DNA from: a virus
Taxonomy: Duplodnaviria; Heunggongvirae; Uroviricota; Caudoviricetes
Length of the DNA: 8,400 nt
Virus record (IMG/VR): IMGVR_UViG_2617270946_000019
Reading direction: 5' to 3' (one strand)
Part shown: piece after piece, positions 1-8,400 of the stretch
Layout of the letters: every line of letters begins with the position of its first letter
How positions within the stretch are numbered: position 1 is the first letter of the stretch
Translations under genes and position numbers: made by a program
The notes under the pieces: generated by a model
Told to the model about the DNA's origin: nothing
The model's input: only the letters and a program-made list of their open reading frames with translations
Databases searched by the model: none

Positions 1-1230
1 CGTGAAATATACCGCCTGGAGCCTGAAGAAAGCTGTTGCCCGGAGTGTGGCGGTGAGCTGGATTATCTGGGGGAAGTCAGCGCAGAACAACTGGAACTGG
101 TGAGCAGCGCCCTGAAAGTGATCCGCACAGAACGGGTAAAAAAAGCCTGTACAAAATGTGACTGCATCGTTGAAGCACCGGCGCCGTCCCGCCCGATAGA
201 GCGTGGTATCGCGGGCCCCGGATTACTTGCCCGCGTGTTAACGGGAAAATACTGCGAACACCTGCCACTGTATCGTCAGAGTGAAATCTTTGCCCGACAG
301 GGTGTCGAACTGAGCCGTGCATTACTCTCCAACTGGGTTGACGCGTGCTGCCAGTTAATGACGCCGCTGAATGATGCCCTGTACCGTTATGTGATGAATA
401 CCCGCAAGCTTCACACTGACGACACACCGGTAAAGGTACTGGCACCGGGCCTGAAAAAGACGAAAACAGGGCGCATCTGGACGTATGTCCGGGATGATCG
501 CAATGCGGGTTCGTCATCTCCTCCGGCGGTCTGGTTCGCGTACTCATCGAACCGGCAGGGGAAACACCCGGAGCAACACCTCCGCCCCTTCCGGGGTATC
601 CTGCAGGCGGATGCGTTCACAGGTTATGACAGGCTGTTCAGTGCAGAACGTGAAGGTAGTGCGCTGACAGAAGTTGCGTGCTGGGCTCATGCCCGGAGAA
701 AAATCCACGATGTATACATCAGCAGCAAAAGTGCGACGGCAGAAGAAGCCCTGAAGCGAATCAGTGAACTGTACGCCATCGAGGATGAAATACGGGGATT
801 ACCAGAGTCAGAGCGTCTTGCAGCCAGGCAGCAGCGAAGCAAAGCGTTACTGACGTCGCTGCATGAATGGATGGTGGAGAAGAATGGCACGCTGTCGAAA
901 AAATCCAGACTGGGCGAAGCGTTCAGCTATGTACTGAATCAGTGGGACGCCCTCTGTTATTACAGTGATGACGGTCTGGCGGAGGTGGACAATAACACAG
1001 CGGAAAGAGCGCTTCGTGCAGTCTGTCTCGGAAAGAAAAATTACGTGTTCTTCGGTAGCGATCACGGCGGCGAGCGTGGAGCACTGCTGTACGGGCTGAT
1101 CGGCACCTGCCGTCTGAACGGTATCGATCCGGAAGCGTATCTGCGCCATATTCTGAGCGTACTGCCGGAATGGCCCTCCAACCGTGTTGACGAACTCCTG
1201 CCATGGAACGTAGTACTCACCAATAAATAA
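1..1230 (+). CDS. tnpC: IS66-family transposase (TnpC-type), 3' portion; 5' end lies upstream of the window
   Basis: The frame is open from base 1 (REIYRLEPEESCCPECGGEL...), so the GTG at 100 is not the true start. Translation shows a CPECGG zinc-finger-like motif and a long transposase body typical of IS66/ISEc8-type TnpC; stop TAA at 1228-1230. Assignment is by eye from the translation. Confidence 0.88.
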   Translation, partial: REIYRLEPEESCCPECGGELDYLGEVSAEQLELVSSALKVIRTERVKKACTKCDCIVEAPAPSRPIERGIAGPGLLARVLTGKYCEHLPLYRQSEIFARQGVELSRALLSNWVDACCQLMTPLNDALYRYVMNTRKLHTDDTPVKVLAPGLKKTKTGRIWTYVRDDRNAGSSSPPAVWFAYSSNRQGKHPEQHLRPFRGILQADAFTGYDRLFSAEREGSALTEVACWAHARRKIHDVYISSKSATAEEALKRISELYAIEDEIRGLPESERLAARQQRSKALLTSLHEWMVEKNGTLSKKSRLGEAFSYVLNQWDALCYYSDDGLAEVDNNTAERALRAVCLGKKNYVFFGSDHGGERGALLYGLIGTCRLNGIDPEAYLRHILSVLPEWPSNRVDELLPWNVVLTNK

Positions 1231-1260
1231 GCGTCAATACGGTGCTCCGTTGACACTTAC
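1231..1260. mobile_element. IS66-family right terminal inverted repeat / element boundary
   Basis: Immediately after the tnpC stop; the reverse complement of 1241-1260 reads GTAAGTGTCAACGG..., resembling the GTAAGCG-type termini of IS66-family elements. Internal hairpin GTCAA-N12-TTGAC. The adjacent minus-strand gene stops making sense exactly at 1260/1261. Confidence 0.6.
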
Positions 1261-1435
1261 AAATTTTCTGGGTATTACGAGACAGGGCTTCCGGATGGCT
1301 GTCGTCATACAGTTCAGGAAACGTCATACCCAACTCAAAATAAGCCTGGGTTATTCCAGCTACTGGAACTTTTTCGCCATCAGGACGCGCCCAGGCATTC
1401 ATCGCCATGCGGATGTGTTCATGCTTGATTTTCAT
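1261..1435 (-). pseudogene. ydaT-like (CII-position) gene, 5' fragment of 58 codons, interrupted by the IS66 insertion
   Basis: Minus-strand ORF starting at ATG 1435 (MKIKHEHIRMAMNAWARPDGEKVPVAGITQAYFELG...) overlaps the 3' end of the upstream Cro-like gene by 17 nt. Beyond position 1261 the reading frame runs into IS-derived sequence. Position downstream of the Cro-like gene matches ydaS-ydaT arrangements; homology to YdaT is from memory only. Confidence 0.45.
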
Positions 1436-1691
1436 GAATCAACTCCGGTGCATTTGATGTGTTAACCTTGAATCCAACAGGTAAACCGTCGGTTGGGTTA
1501 GGATAAATATCAGGGCGAATTTCATGCGGGGTAACTTCCCACTTCATTAGCTGACATAACGGAATTACCTGCTTTGGGGGAACGTCAAAGCTAAACCATT
1601 GCCAAACTGTCTGTTGAGCGACCCCCATATAACGACCTATTTCAGCTTGAGTGTATTTCTGCCTAATTTTTTCGCGAGTGCTATCTAGCAT
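1419..1691 (-). CDS. Cro/YdaS-like HTH DNA-binding protein
   Basis: 90 aa; HTH-like segment QAEIGRYMGVAQQTVWQW and a conserved VTPHEIRPDIYPNPTDGLP motif typical of YdaS/Cro-like prophage regulators. Good RBS (AGGAGAG) 5-8 nt upstream of ATG 1691 on the minus strand. Divergent from the repressor gene. Confidence 0.75.
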   Translation of the reverse strand: MLDSTREKIRQKYTQAEIGRYMGVAQQTVWQWFSFDVPPKQVIPLCQLMKWEVTPHEIRPDIYPNPTDGLPVGFKVNTSNAPELIHENQA

Positions 1692-1725
1692 TTTGCTCTC
1701 CTCTAAAAAACTATAAGCAAAGCCT

Positions 1726-1764
1726 ACAATAAAAAACTGTACACAATCAACAGTTTTTTATTGT
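1726..1764. promoter_or_regulatory. Operator palindrome (OR-like): ACAATAAAAAACTGT-N9-ACAGTTTTTTATTGT
   Basis: Perfect 15-bp inverted arms with a 9-bp spacer, in the divergent intergenic region between the Cro-like and CI-like genes. A weaker palindromic copy lies at about 1771-1792 and a half-site-like AAAAAACTAT at about 1705-1714. Confidence 0.7.
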
Positions 1765-1800
1765 GATGCTTTTAACAGTATTTACCTGTAAAATTGAATA

Positions 1801-2202
1801 ATGATGAACGCCCTAGAAGTATCTATGTACAGAATCAGCAAGCTTCTTCAGGAAACTGGATGGAGCCAGGCTGAGCTTGCCCGTAGAATTGGTGTGACAC
1901 AACAAACTGTTCAACAATGGGTCAGCGGTAAGGCTACACCTAAAGCCTCAAGTTTGGATAAACTGGTTGAGGTTACAGGGCATCCATTGCATTGGTTTTT
2001 ATTGCCTCCTGAAGAGGGGGAGCAAATTTTCACCCCTGACACGATGAAAATTGGTCCTCGTCAACGCGAACTGCTCCAGGCTTTTAGTGCGTTTCCAGAG
2101 GAAGACCAAGAAAAAATGCTTCAAGAAATCAAAGACAAGAAAAAATCAATGGAAGAAACCATTGCCCGGTGGTTGGCGGCACAAAAAAGCCGCCGGGCGT
2201 GA
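1801..2202 (+). CDS. CI/DicA/PaaR-like HTH repressor (XRE family)
   Basis: 133 aa; N-terminal HTH (SQAELARRIGVTQQTVQQWVSG) and a C-terminal helical region resembling DicA/PaaR-type repressors. Tandem ATG ATG at 1801/1804 with essentially no Shine-Dalgarno. Divergent from the Cro-like gene. Confidence 0.8.
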   Translation: MMNALEVSMYRISKLLQETGWSQAELARRIGVTQQTVQQWVSGKATPKASSLDKLVEVTGHPLHWFLLPPEEGEQIFTPDTMKIGPRQRELLQAFSAFPEEDQEKMLQEIKDKKKSMEETIARWLAAQKSRRA

Positions 2203-2229
2203 CCACAGTACAAGAAGAGGAGTTATGCC

Positions 2230-2421
2230 ATGAGTACAGCCCTTTCTCCGATAGTTTCAGAATTCGAAACTACCGAACAAGAAAACAGTTACAACGAATG
2301 GTTACGCGCTAAAGTGGCGTCAAGCCTTGCTGACCCTCGTCCCTCAATTCCACATGATGAGGTAATGGCTGAAATGGAGAATCTTATTGCTCAAATTGCT
2401 GTAACTAACAGGAGCGAGTAA
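2230..2421 (+). CDS. PaaA-like antitoxin (partner of ParE-family toxin)
   Basis: 63 aa; RBS GAGGAG upstream; sequence ...SEFETTEQENSYNEWLRAKVASSLADPRPSIPHDEV... resembles PaaA2-type antitoxins as I recall them. Stop TAA overlaps the ATG of the next gene (TAATG). Confidence 0.7.
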   Translation: MSTALSPIVSEFETTEQENSYNEWLRAKVASSLADPRPSIPHDEVMAEMENLIAQIAVTNRSE

Positions 2422-2708
2422 TGTTACCCATTTTGTGGCTACCATCTGCTCGCGATGATTTGCGTCAGATCGTAGCCTATATTGCTAAGGAAAATATTCC
2501 TGCAGCACGCAGACTAAAAATACGGATTGAAACGTCTGTTTTAGCTCTCTCTGAGCATCCATATCTATATCCGCCAAGTGATCGAGTATCCGGTTTGCGG
2601 GAAATTGTGGTTCACCCTAATTATATCGTTTTGTACCGAGTAGCAGCTTCAAGCATTGAAATTGCAAATATTGTGCATGCCCGCCGACAATTTCCCTTCC
2701 CTATCTGA
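2421..2708 (+). CDS. parE: ParE/RelE-superfamily toxin (ParE-type)
   Basis: 95 aa; ParE-like pattern (W..A..DL..I..YIA..N..AA, REIVV..YIVLYRV, I.NIVHARR). Translationally coupled to the upstream antitoxin. Confidence 0.8.
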   Translation: MLPILWLPSARDDLRQIVAYIAKENIPAARRLKIRIETSVLALSEHPYLYPPSDRVSGLREIVVHPNYIVLYRVAASSIEIANIVHARRQFPFPI

Positions 2709-3519: not shown

Positions 3520-3807
3520 TTTATTCACAGGTGAGGTAGAGTGCGTGCGCCGGACACGGATAAGAATCCGGCACTGACAGTTTACTGAAAAGGATATATC
3601 CCTGAAAAGTCAGGGCATAACGCGAAAGCGCACGGCGAAGTTCGTCTCTCTGTAGGTAGTCGTTAAATTTAATTCGACCGTGCGCTTCCGGTTGTGGCAA
3701 TCCGCGAAATGGCGCGGCGGTAAGTATGGCGGGGTTATTCCTTCCCCGCTGAGGACACCGGGTTGTCAGGTTGACCATACGCTTAAGTGACAACCCCGCT
3801 GCAACGC

Positions 3808-3860
3808 CCTCTGTTATCACTTTTCTGGTGATTCGGCGGAAACGGATATCCGCCCTTTTT
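3808..3860 (+). ncRNA. dicF: DicF-like small RNA with intrinsic terminator
   Basis: Sequence UUUCUGGUGA...GGCGG-loop-CCGCCCUUUUU (3822-3860) matches the 5' start and 3' terminator of E. coli DicF as I recall it, but with a shorter internal segment. Terminator hairpin 3835-3854 plus T-run 3856-3860. Sits directly upstream of a dicB-like gene, as in the dicB operon. The 5' end is uncertain because DicF is produced by processing. Confidence 0.6.
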
Positions 3861-3864
3861 AAAG

Positions 3865-4021
3865 TGAATTTTGTGATGCGGTGAATGCGGCTATGCGCAC
3901 GCGGAACAGTTAAAGCAGTAAGGCGGTATTTTACGGGCGTAACGAGCATCAACTAATCCGGCGTTAATTGTTAACTGGTTAACGTCACCTGGAGGCACCA
4001 GGCACTGCATCACAAAATTCA
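3865..4021. repeat. Long-range inverted repeat (15-bp perfect arms: 3865-3879 and 4007-4021) enclosing 127 bp
   Basis: TGAATTTTGTGATGC at 3865-3879 is exactly the reverse complement of 4007-4021. In RNA the pairing extends to about 21 bp (3863-3883 with 4003-4023) allowing G-U pairs. Lies between the dicF terminator and the dicB RBS. Confidence 0.7.
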
Positions 4022-4038
4022 TTGTTGAGGACGCGATA

Positions 4039-4507: not shown

Positions 4508-6979
4508 ATGAGTAAAGTCTTTATTTGCGCCGCCATTCCGGACGAACAGGCAATAAAGGAAGAAGGTGCCGTCGCTGTAGCCACTGCCATTGAAGCCGGT
4601 GATGAACGTCGCGCCCGCGCAAAATTTCACTGGCAATTCCTGGAACATTATCCGGCTGCTCAGGACTGCGCTTATAAATTTCTTGTCTGCGAGGATAAAC
4701 CCGGTATACCCCGCCCTGCCCTAGATTCCTGGGATGCTGAATATATGCAGGAAAACCGCTGGGATGAGGAGTCTGCTTCCTTTGTCCCGGTTGAGACTGA
4801 ATCAGATCCGATGAACGTCACTTTTGACAAGCTGGCCCCTGAAGTACAGAACGCTGTCATGGTTAAGTTCGACACATGTGAAAACATCACCGTTGATATG
4901 GTGATTAGCGCGCAGGAACTGTTGCAGGAAGACATGGCAACATTCGACGGACATATCGTTGAAGCGTTGATGAAAATGCCAGAAGTTAACACCATGTATC
5001 CGGAGCTTAAGCTGCATGCCATCGGGTGGGTTAAGCATAAATGTAAGCCTGGTGCCAAATGGCCCGAAATTCAGGCAGAGATGCGCATCTGGAAAAAACG
5101 TCGCGAAGGTGAACGCAAGGAAGCCGGAAAATACACGTCTGTTGTTGATCTCGCCCGCGCCAGAGCCAATCAACAGCACAGTGAAAATTCAACAGGAAAA
5201 ATCAGCCCGGTCATTGCTGCCATTCATCGCGAATACAAGCAGACATGGAAAACACTGGATGACGAACTGGCCTACGCTCTCTGGCCTGGTGATGTGGATG
5301 CCGGAAACATTGACGGCAGCATCCATCGCTGGGCAAAAAATGAAGTTATCGACAACGACCGCGAAGACTGGAAGCGTATCTCGGCATCAATGCGCAAACA
5401 GCCTGATGCCCTTCGCTACGACCGCCAGACTATTTTTGGCCTTGTCCGTGAACGTCCGATCGACATTCACAAAGACCCTGTGGCACTGAACAAATACATT
5501 ACTGAATACCTGACTACAAAGGGCGTGTTTGAAGATGAAGGAAGAAATCAGAGCGCAACTGATACTCTCTCGTCGCCAGTACCAGAAACTGATGCAGTGG
5601 AAACGGCAATTCCGGGCAACGAAAAAACCGAATGCAAAGTGGAAGTCGAACCATCTGTAGAGCGTGAGGGGCCGTTCTACTTCCTCTTCACCGACAAGGA
5701 TGGCGAAAAATACGGTCGCGCAAACAAACTTTCTGGTCTGGAAAAAGCACTAGCCTTGGGAGCTACGGAAATCACAAAAGAGGAATACTTCGCACGTAAA
5801 AACGGCACGTACTCAGGTTCACAACAAAATACTGGTGCATCTGACACGACCGCACAACCAGAGCCGGTAAAAGTTACCGCTGACGAAGTAAACAAAATTA
5901 TGCAGGCAGCCAATATCAGCCAGCCTGACGCCGATAAGTTGCTTGCTGCCTCTCGCGGAGAATTTGTTGCAGGGATTAGCGACCCGAATGATCCGAAATG
6001 GGTAAAGGGGATTGAAACCCGCGATTCTGTAAACCAGAACCAGCAAGAATCGGAACAGAACGACCAGAAAGCGGAACAAAACAGCCCAAATACGCAACAA
6101 AACGAGCCAGAAACGAAACAACCTGAGCCAGTAGCGCAACAGGAACCGGAAAAAGTCTGCACCGCCTGCGGTCAAAGCGGTGGCGGCAACTGCCCTGATT
6201 GTGGCGCGGTGATGGGTGACGCAACATACCAGGAAACATTCGATGAAGAGAATCAGGTTGAAGTTCAGGAAAATGATCCGAAGGAAATGGAAGGCGCTGA
6301 ACATCCACACAAGGAGAATGCTGGTAGCGCTCAGGATCACGCCAGCGATAGTGAAACTGGCGAGACGGCAGATCCCTTAATTGCGATGAACGGTCATCAC
6401 GTTATCACATCCACCAGCAGGACGTGTGACCATCTAATGATCGACCTTGAAACCATGGGAAAAAATCCTGATGCCCCGATTATCTCAATAGGTGCAATAT
6501 TTTTCGATCCGCAAACCGGAGATATGGGACCGGAATTTAGTAAGACTATCGATCTGGAAACTGCTGGCGGAGTCATTGATCGTGACGTCATTAAAAGGTG
6601 GCTGAAGCAATCACGTGAAGCGCAGTCTGCCATTATGACCGATGAAATCCCGTTAGATGATGCACTGTTACAATTGCGGGAATTTATCGACGAAAACTCC
6701 GGTGAATTTTTTGTTCAGGTCTGGGGAAATGGAGCCAACTTCGACAACACGATTTTGCGCCGTTCATACGAACGGCAGGGGATCCCCTGCCCGTGGCGTT
6801 ACTACAACGATCGCGATGTACGCACAATCGTTGAGCTGGGGAAAGCCATAGACTTCGATGCCAGAACGGCTATTCCATTCGAAGGTGAGCGCCATAATGC
6901 ACTTGATGACGCCCGTTACCAGGCAAAATACATTTCAGTTATCTGGCAAAAACTGATCCCGAATCAGGCTGATTTTTAA
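4508..6979 (+). CDS. Large prophage protein with zinc ribbon and C-terminal DEDDh (DnaQ-like) 3'-5' exonuclease domain; exodeoxyribonuclease VIII-like placement
   Basis: 823 aa. C-terminal domain carries motif I IDLETMG (D 6443-6445, E 6449-6451), motif II WGNGANFD (D 6743-6745) and motif III HNALDDA (H 6893-6895). CxxC-N7-CxxC zinc ribbon at 6158-6202, preceded by a Q/E/N/P-rich low-complexity linker (about 6035-6155). N-terminal about 370 aa has no motif I recognise. RBS GAGG upstream of ATG 4508. Confidence 0.8.
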   Translation: MSKVFICAAIPDEQAIKEEGAVAVATAIEAGDERRARAKFHWQFLEHYPAAQDCAYKFLVCEDKPGIPRPALDSWDAEYMQENRWDEESASFVPVETESDPMNVTFDKLAPEVQNAVMVKFDTCENITVDMVISAQELLQEDMATFDGHIVEALMKMPEVNTMYPELKLHAIGWVKHKCKPGAKWPEIQAEMRIWKKRREGERKEAGKYTSVVDLARARANQQHSENSTGKISPVIAAIHREYKQTWKTLDDELAYALWPGDVDAGNIDGSIHRWAKNEVIDNDREDWKRISASMRKQPDALRYDRQTIFGLVRERPIDIHKDPVALNKYITEYLTTKGVFEDEGRNQSATDTLSSPVPETDAVETAIPGNEKTECKVEVEPSVEREGPFYFLFTDKDGEKYGRANKLSGLEKALALGATEITKEEYFARKNGTYSGSQQNTGASDTTAQPEPVKVTADEVNKIMQAANISQPDADKLLAASRGEFVAGISDPNDPKWVKGIETRDSVNQNQQESEQNDQKAEQNSPNTQQNEPETKQPEPVAQQEPEKVCTACGQSGGGNCPDCGAVMGDATYQETFDEENQVEVQENDPKEMEGAEHPHKENAGSAQDHASDSETGETADPLIAMNGHHVITSTSRTCDHLMIDLETMGKNPDAPIISIGAIFFDPQTGDMGPEFSKTIDLETAGGVIDRDVIKRWLKQSREAQSAIMTDEIPLDDALLQLREFIDENSGEFFVQVWGNGANFDNTILRRSYERQGIPCPWRYYNDRDVRTIVELGKAIDFDARTAIPFEGERHNALDDARYQAKYISVIWQKLIPNQADF

Positions 6980-7043: not shown

Positions 7044-7292
7044 ATGGCAAGACTTATTCTGCTCACTGAGTGGGCAAAAGAGGAATTCAGTGAACCGGTC
7101 CCTACTCCGAGTACGTTAAGTAAATACGCTAAAGCCGGAATGATATTTCCTCTCCCCAAAAAAGTTGGAAGACGCTGGCGAGTGGATCCGCAAGCTCGCT
7201 TTGTCGGAATGGTAAACAAGCCGGAGGTGATCGCCACAGATCACCCTGCTTTGAAGAGGATACTGGAAGATGGCGCGCCCGCGAAAATATAA
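7044..7292 (+). CDS. xis: Excisionase (lambda Xis-like)
   Basis: 82 aa; pattern LTEWAK...MIFPLPKKVGRRWRV resembles lambda Xis (LTLQEW...RIFPPPVK). Overlaps the integrase start by 23 nt, as is typical for xis-int. Confidence 0.8.
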   Translation: MARLILLTEWAKEEFSEPVPTPSTLSKYAKAGMIFPLPKKVGRRWRVDPQARFVGMVNKPEVIATDHPALKRILEDGAPAKI

Positions 7293-8400
7293 AACCGATG
7301 TTCCGGGATTATCTCCGTATTTTGACAAAAGAAATAACAAAGTTTACTGGCGTTACAGGCATCCCATAACAGGCAAAAATCACGGTCTCGGCAGTATTGA
7401 CCAGAAACTGGCAGAAACTATTGCAGCAGAAGCGAACAGCCGTCTTGCCCGGCAGCAAATGGAACAAATGCTCAGTCTGCAGGAGAAAATTATTAGTGAT
7501 ACCGGCGGTTCATCAACCGTTACCATTTTTCTGAATAATTACAGAAAAATTCAACAGGAAAGATATGAAAACGGCGAGATCAAACTCAACACGCTGAAAC
7601 AGAAAGCGGCCCCTCTCAGGGTATTTGATGAACGTTTTGGCACCAGACCGTTAGATGCCATAACCGTAAAAGATGTGGTATCAGTACTGGAAGAGTACAA
7701 GGCCAGAGGACATAACAGAATGGGACAAATTTTCAGGAAAGTACTGATCGATGTTTTCCGGGAAGCTCAGCAAACGGGCGATGTCCCGCCAGGCTTTAAC
7801 CCTGCAGAATCGGCAAAAAAACCGCAGGTGCGGATATCAAGACAGCGACTGACTTTTGATGAGTGGATGATGATTTATAACGCAGCGGAAAAGGATGGTT
7901 ACTTTTTACAGCGCGGTATGCTGCTGGCACTGATGACAGGCCAGCGCCTTTCAGATATTTGCAAAATGCAATTTTCGGATATCCGGGATGGTTATCTTCA
8001 TGTCGAACAGCAAAAAACAGGAACCCGGATTGCCATCCCTCTGGCTCTGCGTTGCGATAAATTAAATCTCACCCTGGATGATGTGGTGTCATCCTGCCGC
8101 GATTGCGTTCTTAGTCCGTGGCTATTGCACCACCATCACGCGAAAGGGACAGCTAAGCGCGGCGGGATGGTTAAGCCAGCAACATTAACCGTTGCATTTA
8201 AAAAAGCCCGGGATTCTGTGGATTACAACTGGCGTGCTAATGGCACCCCTCCCTCTTTCCATGAGCAGAGATCTTTATCAGAGCGATTGTTCAGAGAGCA
8301 GGGGGTTGATACCAAAATTTTGCTAGGCCATTCGAATCAAAAAATGACCGATATTTACAACGACGCACGCGGTAAGGAATGGAAAAAACTGGTCATTTGA
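7270..8400 (+). CDS. int: Tyrosine integrase, lambda Int family
   Basis: 376 aa; conserved R (LMTGQRLSD), H-x-x-R (HEQRSLSERLF), LLGHS...MTDIY (catalytic Tyr) and a C-terminal RGKEWKK tail similar to lambda Int (RGREWDK). Stop TGA at 8398-8400 coincides with the window end. Confidence 0.92.
   Translation: MARPRKYKTDVPGLSPYFDKRNNKVYWRYRHPITGKNHGLGSIDQKLAETIAAEANSRLARQQMEQMLSLQEKIISDTGGSSTVTIFLNNYRKIQQERYENGEIKLNTLKQKAAPLRVFDERFGTRPLDAITVKDVVSVLEEYKARGHNRMGQIFRKVLIDVFREAQQTGDVPPGFNPAESAKKPQVRISRQRLTFDEWMMIYNAAEKDGYFLQRGMLLALMTGQRLSDICKMQFSDIRDGYLHVEQQKTGTRIAIPLALRCDKLNLTLDDVVSSCRDCVLSPWLLHHHHAKGTAKRGGMVKPATLTVAFKKARDSVDYNWRANGTPPSFHEQRSLSERLFREQGVDTKILLGHSNQKMTDIYNDARGKEWKKLVI

What the first reader, a model, noticed from the sequence alone, without database searches (positions are those of the whole stretch)
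1231..1435. IS66-family element inserted into the ydaT-like (CII-position) gene next to the immunity switch
The minus-strand gene starting at 1435 is coherent for 58 codons and then runs into the IS terminus at 1260/1261, with the transposase ending at 1230. The insertion removes most of the gene downstream of the cro-like regulator and separates the rightward early operon from whatever lay beyond. That could lock the prophage into a defective state or alter its lysis-lysogeny control. The outward-facing IS end could also supply promoter activity toward the cro-like gene.
Basis: partly seen in the sequence, partly recalled or inferred. Interest (0 to 1): 0.45.

Follow-up and report, generated by a model that had tools for sequence, protein, structure and literature searches.

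The report
IS66-family insertion splitting prophage ydaT gene
A 2.5-kb jumping gene (ISEc47, IS66 family) has landed inside the CII-like regulator gene ydaT of a decaying lambda-like prophage in an E. coli isolate and knocked the gene out; this is an ordinary piece of prophage decay.

Summary
Window 1-1260 is the right-hand 1260 nt of an ISEc47-type IS66-family element. Its tnpC stop is at 1228-1230 and its tip is ...GACACTTAC at 1260. From 1261 the sequence is 100% identical to intact prophage loci in complete E. coli genomes, where the minus-strand gene starting at 1435 encodes a 141-aa YdaT-family protein. Here it keeps 58 native codons, then 14 IS-derived codons and a stop (1217-1435).

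The window is the end of a draft contig. A second contig of the same assembly carries the other IS end joined to the remaining 83 ydaT codons. Both junctions carry AAATTTTC, so the predicted 8-bp target duplication is real and no target DNA was lost.

The intact protein is 87% identical to CP-933P YdaT (PDB 8BT1), a CII-like tetrameric activator of PRE. The break falls inside its recognition helix and removes the tetramerisation helix, so the allele is almost certainly null. The OM operator (1425-1442) and the PaaR2/YdaS switch are untouched.

The same lineage also lacks the O C-terminus and the DnaC-like loader gene, so the prophage is defective anyway. An outward IS promoter is weakly supported and would be antisense to the cro-like gene. 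Interest is low.

The parts
1..1260 (+). Right-hand 1260 nt of an ISEc47-type IS66-family insertion sequence. The full element is 2541 bp; the window starts inside tnpC.
   Evidence: 99.8-99.9% identity to RefSeq copies annotated 'IS66-like element ISEc47 family transposase'. The reference copy L006:1220-3760 is bounded by GTAAGCG.../...CGCTTAC and an 8-bp TSD.
100..1230 (+). C-terminal part of the TnpC DDE transposase. The ORF as listed starts at an internal GTG because the window begins inside the gene. The stop codon is at 1228-1230.
   Evidence: Pfam DDE_Tnp_IS66 E 9e-98 and DDE_Tnp_IS66_C E 2e-16; ORF list.
1231..1260 (+). Right terminal inverted repeat region of the IS (reverse complement GTAAGTGTCAACGG...). 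It carries a G-to-A variant at 1255 that turns TTGACG into TTGACA (1250-1255).
   Evidence: Comparison with three reference copies. The variant end occurs in 129 of 5679 matching E. coli records.
1261..1268 (.). 8-bp target-site duplication AAATTTTC (right-hand copy).
   Evidence: The same octamer abuts the IS left end on contig JNRI01000073.1 of the same assembly. The uninterrupted target reads GCGGAAAATTTTCTGGG.
1262..1435 (-). The first 58 codons of the ydaT-family (CII-analogue) gene, truncated by the insertion.
   Evidence: 100% identical to codons 1-58 of the 141-aa WP_032207470.1. The intact protein is 87% identical to PDB 8BT1 (CP-933P YdaT).
1217..1435 (-). 72-aa fusion ORF: 58 YdaT codons, then 14 IS-derived codons (CKCQRSTVLTLIYW), then TGA.
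   Evidence: The exact protein is annotated as 'hypothetical protein' in three draft assemblies. It gives no Pfam hit, whereas the intact protein hits YdaT_toxin at residues 48-95.
1425..1442 (.). YdaT high-affinity operator OM, TTGATTTTCATGAATCAA, spanning the ydaS end and ydaT start. It is retained intact.
   Evidence: Exact match to the published 5'-TTGATTN6AATCAA-3' site (PMC9986795 section 3.3). A single match is not statistically unusual on its own (111 of 200 shuffles give at least one match at up to 2 mismatches). The position is exactly the published one.
1419..1691 (-). ydaS (cro-analogue) gene, intact. It overlaps the ydaT start by 17 nt.
   Evidence: Pfam YdaS_toxin E 1.6e-9. Annotated 'transcriptional regulator' WP_000887447.1 in intact loci.
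1801..2202 (+). paaR2-like CI-analogue repressor (133 aa). It has an HTH only and no peptidase domain.
   Evidence: Pfam HTH_3 E 1.7e-13 and Phage_CI_repr E 1e-5. The best solved-structure match is the 434 repressor HTH.

Best explanation
A 2541-bp ISEc47-type IS66-family element transposed into codon 59 of the ydaT-family gene. This is the third gene of the immunity region (CI-like paaR2 / Cro-like ydaS / CII-like ydaT) of a lambdoid prophage integrated next to ompW in an E. coli lineage. The event was a simple cut-in with an 8-bp target duplication (AAATTTTC) and no loss of flanking DNA.

Shown:
- the exact junctions;
- the target duplication;
- the identity of the IS;
- the length of the intact gene (141 aa);
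- the position of the break.

Inferred from published work on the 87%-identical CP-933P YdaT:
- The 58-residue stub ends inside recognition helix alpha3 (residues 50-63). It lacks conserved Arg60, helices alpha4-5 and the tetramerising helix alpha6. Even YdaT(1-96) does not bind DNA, so the allele is null.
- The YdaT-dependent PRE promoter, whose OM operator is still intact at 1425-1442, can therefore no longer be activated.
- The PaaR2/YdaS bistable switch and the paaA2-parE2 toxin-antitoxin pair are untouched.

Inferred from general knowledge: 2.5 kb of untranslated, antisense-oriented IS now lies between the PR-type promoter and the O-like replication gene and everything beyond it. It should act as a polar block on the rightward early operon.

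The lineage also carries a ~3.7-kb deletion that removes the O C-terminus and the DnaC-like helicase loader. The IS is therefore one of at least two lesions in a prophage that is decaying into a cryptic element. It is not a regulatory innovation.
For: - Breakpoint: alignment with intact loci is perfect from 1261 and unrelated before it.
- IS identity and ends.
- Other junction with the same octamer, in the same assembly (GCA_000704605.1, contig JNRI01000073.1).
- Identical junction strings in 3 right-junction contigs and 6 left-junction contigs.
- tnpA, tnpB and the tnpC N-terminus on the companion contig.
- Intact YdaT is 141 aa in complete genomes with 100% nucleotide identity over the retained part.
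- 87% identity to PDB 8BT1.
- Structure and function of YdaT (alpha3 = residues 50-63, Arg60, alpha6 tetramer, YdaT1-96 inactive, OM site): PMC9986795.
- YdaT activates PRE933P; PaaR2, YdaS and YdaT are analogues of CI, Cro and CII: PMC8630535.
- OM is present at 1425-1442.
- Second lesion: contig L007 is 100% identical to SHP24 up to 87 nt before the end of O, then jumps 3.7 kb. The O-like protein is identical for 293 aa and then diverges. The DnaC-like loader (phrog_50) is absent. No complete genome shares that junction.
Against: - Both junction contigs end inside the IS, and 121 nt of the element is covered by neither. It is therefore not proven that the two junctions flank one and the same IS copy today. 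Recombination with another ISEc47 copy after insertion would look identical in draft data.
- Loss of function of the stub, silence of PRE and polarity on O are inferred. They were not measured.
- The consensus scan found no more intrinsic-terminator-like sites in the IS than in shuffled sequence. Polarity would therefore have to be Rho-dependent.
- The order of the two lesions (IS insertion versus O/loader deletion) is unknown.
Confidence: 0.9

Rival explanations
1. The IS end acts as a mobile promoter. The -35-like TTGACA at the tip of the right inverted repeat (1250-1255) would combine with target DNA (TATTAC at 1273-1278, 17-nt spacer) to form a hybrid outward promoter. This promoter would constitutively transcribe the + strand, antisense to ydaT' and ydaS and onward into paaR2-paaA2-parE2. 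It would functionally replace the lost YdaT-activated PRE and bias the switch toward the repressed, immune state.
For: - A perfect -35 hexamer lies 5 nt from the IS tip. It is created by the G-to-A difference at 1255, which is the only difference between this copy and its closest references.
- Its direction is the same as PRE and paaR2 (PMC8630535).
- Hybrid promoters formed by IS ends are a well-known phenomenon in other IS families (general knowledge).
Against: - The -10 candidate matches 4 of 6 positions, lacks the conserved final T and has no extended TG.
- The consensus scan reports no promoter-like site in 900-2300 on either strand.
- The TTGACA variant is not specific to this site. It occurs at IS66-type ends in 129 of 5679 matching E. 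coli records, so it is not evidence of local selection.
- No outward promoter has been shown for this IS in the literature available here.
Confidence: 0.07
2. The junction is an assembly artefact, or the product of an IS-mediated rearrangement (deletion or inversion) rather than a simple insertion. In that case ydaT's distal part and the O gene are absent, or lie elsewhere in the genome.
For: - The window is the end of a draft contig that stops inside a multi-copy IS.
- No complete E. coli genome among 5426 carries this junction.
Against: - The reciprocal junction exists in the same assembly. It has the same 8-bp octamer and continues 100% identical to the intact locus with no missing base.
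- Both junctions recur in several independently assembled isolates.
- An inversion between IS copies after a simple insertion cannot be excluded from draft data.
Confidence: 0.03

Closest known systems
ISEc47 (IS66 family) as annotated in RefSeq E. coli genomes
   Same: 99.8-99.9% nucleotide identity over the 1260 nt in the window. The tnpA-tnpB-tnpC organisation is the same (the first two genes are on the companion contig). The termini are GTAAGCG/CGCTTAC-type. The target duplication is 8 bp.
   Different: There is one base change in the right inverted repeat (GCTTAC to ACTTAC at 1255), a minority variant. This insertion site was not seen in any of 5426 complete genomes.
YdaT of cryptic prophage CP-933P (E. 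coli O157:H7 EDL933), PDB 8BT1; also PDB 3C4R from E. coli O6:H1
   Same: The uninterrupted allele is 141 aa and 87% identical. It sits in the same position after ydaS and before an O-like gene, with the same OM operator sequence at the ydaS/ydaT boundary (PMC9986795, PMC8630535).
   Different: Here the gene is interrupted after codon 58. Only alpha1-alpha2 and half of recognition helix alpha3 can be made. The prophage is a mosaic relative, not CP-933P itself. It is integrated next to ompW, and its PaaA2/ParE2 homologues are more diverged from the CP-933P proteins than its YdaT is.
Lambda cII-null prophage, and IS polarity in phage early operons (classical IS insertions in lambda and in gal/lac operons)
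   Same: The establishment regulator is lost without damage to the CI/Cro-type maintenance switch. A large untranslated insertion lies in the PR operon upstream of the replication genes.
   Different: YdaT is unrelated in fold to lambda CII. It has a POU-like domain and 222-symmetric tetramer and binds an inverted repeat (PMC9986795). Polarity is inferred, not measured. The prophage is already replication-defective through a separate deletion.

Membership tests
IS66 family insertion sequence (ISEc47-type) | DDE transposase TnpC with IS66-type catalytic domain | tested here: met
   Pfam DDE_Tnp_IS66 E 9e-98 and DDE_Tnp_IS66_C E 2e-16 on window 100-1230.
IS66 family insertion sequence (ISEc47-type) | Three-gene organisation tnpA-tnpB-tnpC | tested here: met
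   The genes are not in the window. They are on companion contig L007 of the same assembly: HTH_Tnp_1 (tnpA), TnpB_IS66 E 3e-31, and LZ_Tnp_IS66 at the tnpC N-terminus. The same organisation is seen in reference copies.
IS66 family insertion sequence (ISEc47-type) | Imperfect terminal inverted repeats starting GTAAGCG | tested here: met
   Left end GTAAGCGTAAAGCC (L007). Reverse complement of the right end GTAAGTGTCAACGG (window 1247-1260). Reference copy IR comparison.
IS66 family insertion sequence (ISEc47-type) | 8-bp target-site duplication | tested here: met
   AAATTTTC at both junctions. The reference copy has AGATATGC.
YdaT family (CII-analogue, Pfam PF06254 YdaT_toxin) | Sequence membership of the uninterrupted gene | tested here: met
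   The intact 141-aa allele hits PF06254 at E 3e-10. It is 87% identical to 8BT1 at E 2e-81.
YdaT family (CII-analogue, Pfam PF06254 YdaT_toxin) | Complete POU-like HTH domain plus C-terminal tetramerisation helix in the product encoded in this window | tested here: not met
   The 72-aa product ends native sequence at residue 58, inside alpha3 (residues 50-63). It gives no Pfam hit (PMC9986795). The window carries a disrupted ydaT, not a functional member.
YdaT family (CII-analogue, Pfam PF06254 YdaT_toxin) | Genomic position after a cro-like ydaS and before an O-like gene, with the OM operator at the ydaS/ydaT boundary | tested here: met
   ydaS at 1419-1691, OM at 1425-1442, and the O-like gene directly after the ydaT remainder on L007.
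YdaT family (CII-analogue, Pfam PF06254 YdaT_toxin) | Activation of a PRE-type promoter | not testable with these tools
   Shown only for the CP-933P homologue (PMC8630535). It would need a reporter assay.

The most novel reading that the evidence does not exclude
The IS does more than inactivate ydaT. Its variant right end (TTGACA at 1250-1255) would form a hybrid outward promoter with target DNA. That promoter would constitutively produce a PRE-like transcript, antisense to the cro-like ydaS and sense for paaR2-paaA2-parE2. An activator-dependent establishment promoter would thus be replaced by an IS-borne constitutive one, fixing the cryptic prophage's bistable switch in the repressor/toxin-antitoxin-ON state.
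Probability: 0.05. Interest if true: 0.45.

Novelty: already known. Interest (0 to 1): 0.12.

Why it matters
The finding matters little beyond correct annotation. The 72-aa and 50-aa 'hypothetical proteins' in these draft assemblies are the two halves of one ydaT gene split by ISEc47. The prophage should be annotated as cryptic, with a disrupted CII-analogue and a truncated replication module.

The locus has one modest practical use. It is a naturally occurring ydaT-null allele with the PaaR2/YdaS switch, the OM operator and the paaA2-parE2 pair all intact. It could serve as a natural control for work on the bistable CP-933P-type immunity region.

Tried and rejected
- Same junction in complete genomes. 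I searched 5426 complete E. coli genomes and found none. The other IS end could therefore not be read from a finished genome.
- Route to the other junction. I predicted the ORFs that a gene caller would find at the hypothetical reciprocal junction and looked them up by exact sequence. The 50-aa ORF was then traced to contigs. The 58-aa and 53-aa candidates were not in the collection.
- Rfam scan of the whole window. There were no hits at gathering threshold, so no DicF-type sRNA was called upstream of dicB.
- Consensus promoter and terminator scans of the junction, of the whole IS and of the left junction. Nothing exceeded shuffled-sequence expectation. This gives no support for outward promoters at either IS end or for intrinsic terminators inside the IS. 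The scan also missed the known PR/PRM-type promoters, so it is insensitive.
- The G-to-A change at 1255 as a site-specific adaptive change. Rejected, because the variant end exists in 129 other records.
- Order of the two lesions. I looked for complete genomes sharing the O/loader deletion junction and found none.
- Literature. A search for ISEc47 biology or IS insertions in ydaT found nothing relevant.
- Short intact ydaT. The refutation condition 'an intact ydaT homologue of only about 58 aa' is not met. The intact alleles found are 141 aa. The 132-aa entries look like later start-codon calls, and many of the shorter ones are labelled partial by their source.

Full report
**1. What is in the sequence**

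- Window 100-1230 (+) encodes the C-terminal 376 residues of an IS66-family DDE transposase (Pfam DDE_Tnp_IS66 E 9e-98, DDE_Tnp_IS66_C E 2e-16). The stop codon is at 1228-1230.
- Window 1-1260 is 99.8-99.9% identical to the last 1260 nt of elements that RefSeq annotates as 'IS66-like element ISEc47 family transposase'.
- A reference copy inserted in an integrase pseudogene (L006:1220-3760) defines the element. It is 2541 bp, has tnpA-tnpB-tnpC, ends GTAAGCG.../...CGCTTAC, and is flanked by an 8-bp duplication AGATATGC.
- The window copy ends ...GACACTTAC at 1260.

**2. The breakpoint**

- Window 1261-2200 has 100% nucleotide matches in complete E. coli genomes, for example SHP24 (ZH48 and ZH49 also match at 100%). 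In SHP24 and in TD225-C4 (99.9%), whose annotation was fetched, the locus reads 'toxin YdaT family protein', 'transcriptional regulator' and 'helix-turn-helix domain-containing protein'.
- In a three-way alignment, identity to the intact loci is perfect from window base 1261 rightward and absent to the left. The intact sequence reads ...CCCAGCGGAAAATTTTCTGGG. The window reads ...GACACTTAC|AAATTTTCTGGG.

**3. The interrupted gene**

- The intact gene is 426 nt and encodes 141 aa (WP_032207470.1).
- In the window the minus-strand ORF from ATG 1435-1433 keeps 58 native codons (to 1262) plus the first base of codon 59. It then reads 14 IS-derived codons (CKCQRSTVLTLIYW) to TGA at 1219-1217.
- The intact protein hits Pfam YdaT_toxin at residues 48-95. 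The 72-aa fusion gives no hit.
The intact alleles found are 141 aa, the 132-aa entries look like later start-codon calls, and many of the shorter ones are labelled partial by their source.

**4. The other IS end and the target duplication**

- The window is the reverse complement of the first 8.4 kb (offset 2) of draft contig JNRI01000050.1 from assembly GCA_000704605.1. That contig stops inside the IS.
- No complete genome among 5426 carries the junction.
- I built the hypothetical reciprocal junction from the intact locus plus the reference IS, and listed the ORFs a gene caller could report there. I then looked those ORFs up by exact sequence.
- The 50-aa C-terminal remainder exists as a 'hypothetical protein' in the same strain (E. 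coli 2-005-03_S4_C1) that holds the 72-aa fusion.
- Its contig in the same assembly (JNRI01000073.1 = L007) carries the tnpC N-terminus, tnpB and tnpA. These are followed by ...GGCTTTACGCTTAC|GAAAATTT|TCCGCTGGGTAG. In window orientation this reads ...GCGGA[AAATTTTC]|GTAAGCGTAAAGCC.
- AAATTTTC is therefore duplicated at both ends and not a single target base is missing. This is a textbook simple transposition.
- The exact junction strings recur in 3 right-junction and 6 left-junction draft contigs. From their record prefixes and strain names they look like isolates of one sequencing project; that is my inference, and the tools do not state it.
- Caveat: the two contigs together cover 2420 of the 2541 IS bases. 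They cannot prove that both junctions still flank one IS copy.

**5. What the gene is and what the break does**

- The intact allele is 87% identical to YdaT of cryptic prophage CP-933P (PDB 8BT1, E 2e-81). It also matches 3C4R.
[quoted passage not shown] YdaT is not toxic, and it switches on an otherwise silent PRE promoter between ydaS and ydaT. That promoter gives an alternative transcript for paaR2-paaA2-parE2 (PMC8630535).
- The structure paper shows a POU-like HTH domain with recognition helix alpha3 = Ala50-Asp63 and family-invariant Arg60. It shows a C-terminal helix alpha6 forming a four-helix-bundle tetramer, and a high-affinity operator OM, 5'-TTGATTN6AATCAA-3'. A YdaT(1-96) truncation has no detectable DNA binding (PMC9986795).
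- The insertion here ends native sequence at residue 58, in the middle of alpha3. I infer with high confidence that the allele is null.
- The OM operator is present and exact at window 1425-1442 (TTGATTTTCATGAATCAA), about 165 bp from the IS. The insertion therefore removes the activator protein but leaves its operator.
- The rest of the switch is intact:
  - ydaS (1419-1691, −; YdaS_toxin E 1.6e-9);
  - the paaR2-like HTH repressor (1801-2202, +), which has no peptidase domain;
  - a PaaA2 homologue (2230-2421);
  - a ParE2 homologue (2421-2708);
  - two near-identical 39-bp palindromic operator-like sites at 1726-1764 and 2761-2799.

**6. Consequences for the prophage**

- By analogy with lambda (established knowledge), a CII-type function is needed to establish lysogeny, not to maintain it. 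Loss of YdaT alone should therefore not destabilise a resident prophage.
- The more consequential effect is positional. 2.5 kb of IS, oriented antisense to the PR-type operon, now separates ydaS-ydaT' from the O-like replication gene and everything beyond it on L007 (hok, DUF968, RusA, Q-type antiterminator, late region).
- Translation stops at 1217, so polarity is expected. It would have to be Rho-dependent, because the consensus scan shows no excess of intrinsic-terminator-like sites in the IS. This step is inferred.
- The lineage also has a second lesion. L007 is 100% identical to SHP24 from the junction up to 87 nt before the end of the O gene. It then jumps to sequence 3.7 kb further on.
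- The O-like protein is identical for 293 residues and then diverges (312 vs 321 aa). It loses the C-terminal end of the O profile. The DnaC-like helicase loader (phrog_50) and several downstream genes are gone.
- No complete genome shares this deletion junction, so the order of the two events is unknown.
- The prophage is thus already defective for replication.

**7. The outward-promoter idea**

- The only difference between the window's IS portion and its closest reference copies is G-to-A at 1255. This turns TTGACG into a perfect -35 hexamer TTGACA (1250-1255), 5 nt from the IS tip and facing outward.
- With a 17-nt spacer, the -10 candidate in target DNA is TATTAC (1273-1278). It matches 4 of 6 positions, lacks the conserved final T and has no extended TG.
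- The consensus scan reports no promoter-like site in 900-2300.
- The variant end is not unique to this site. It occurs in 129 of 5679 matching records, for example on O104:H4 pAA-type plasmids.
- Any transcript from such a promoter would run on the + strand. It would be antisense to ydaT' and to the cro-like ydaS, and co-directional with PRE and paaR2. It could not drive cro, but it could mimic PRE.
- I keep this as the most novel reading not excluded, with a probability of about 5%.

**8. Comparison with what is known, and verdict**

- All four defining features of an IS66-family element were tested and met: the DDE_Tnp_IS66 transposase, tnpA-tnpB-tnpC, GTAAGCG-type inverted repeats, and an 8-bp TSD.
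- The interrupted gene is a ydaT-family member by sequence, position and operator. The product encoded here fails the structural requirements of a functional YdaT.
- The phenomenon is well known: an IS inactivating a regulatory gene in a decaying lambdoid prophage. I found no literature on this particular allele, but it adds no new kind of biology.
Interest is low.

Noticed in passing
window 1250-1255 (base 1255): A G-to-A change in the IS right inverted repeat converts TTGACG to the consensus -35 hexamer TTGACA, facing outward. It is the only difference from the closest ISEc47 copies over 1260 nt. The same variant end is present in 129 of 5679 matching E. coli records, including O104:H4 pAA-type plasmids.
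   Followed up: yes
window 1425-1442: There is an exact copy of the published YdaT high-affinity operator OM (TTGATTTTCATGAATCAA). It straddles the ydaS stop region and the ydaT start codon and is left intact by the insertion.
   Followed up: yes
L007:2316-2318 (companion contig JNRI01000073.1); corresponds to SHP24 locus L001:1168-4849: The source lineage lacks about 3.7 kb present in its closest relatives. The missing stretch covers the last ~29 codons of the O-like replication gene, the DnaC-like helicase loader, and the DUF1627, DUF977, DUF4406 and Ea22-like genes. No complete E. coli genome shares this junction.
   Followed up: partly
window 1726-1764 and 2761-2799: Two 39-bp near-identical palindromic sites are present (ACAATAAAAAACTGT-N9-ACAGTTTTTTATTGT and ACAATTAAAAACTGTT-N7-AACAGTTTTTAATTGT). 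One lies in the ydaS/paaR2 intergenic region and one just downstream of parE2. They look like OR- and OL-type operators for the PaaR2/YdaS regulators. The second overlaps a TTGACA.
   Followed up: partly
window 1801-2708: A three-gene paaR2-paaA2-parE2-type toxin-antitoxin operon sits in the cI/rex position. The PaaA2 and ParE2 homologues match PDB 3ZBE and 5CW7 at E 1.5e-22 and 1.2e-37. They are clearly diverged from the CP-933P proteins, so this is a paralogous or variant set.
   Followed up: partly
window 4508-6979: An 823-aa protein has YdfE_N and YdfE_C domains and an Rv2179c-like 3'-5' exonuclease domain (full-length match to phrog_2082 'exonuclease'). It sits in the recombination-gene position between dicB/ydfD and xis-int.
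   Followed up: no
window 3520-4038: A ~520-bp stretch upstream of dicB has no convincing ORF on the + strand. In Qin-type prophages this position holds the DicF sRNA, but Rfam gave no hit at gathering threshold anywhere in the window.
   Followed up: partly
L003:2352-4166 (same contig beyond the window's right end): The prophage integrase (window 7270-8400) abuts ompW. This prophage is therefore integrated next to ompW, whereas the close relative in strain 100117 sits next to potC with a different integrase allele. That is typical lambdoid mosaicism.
   Followed up: no
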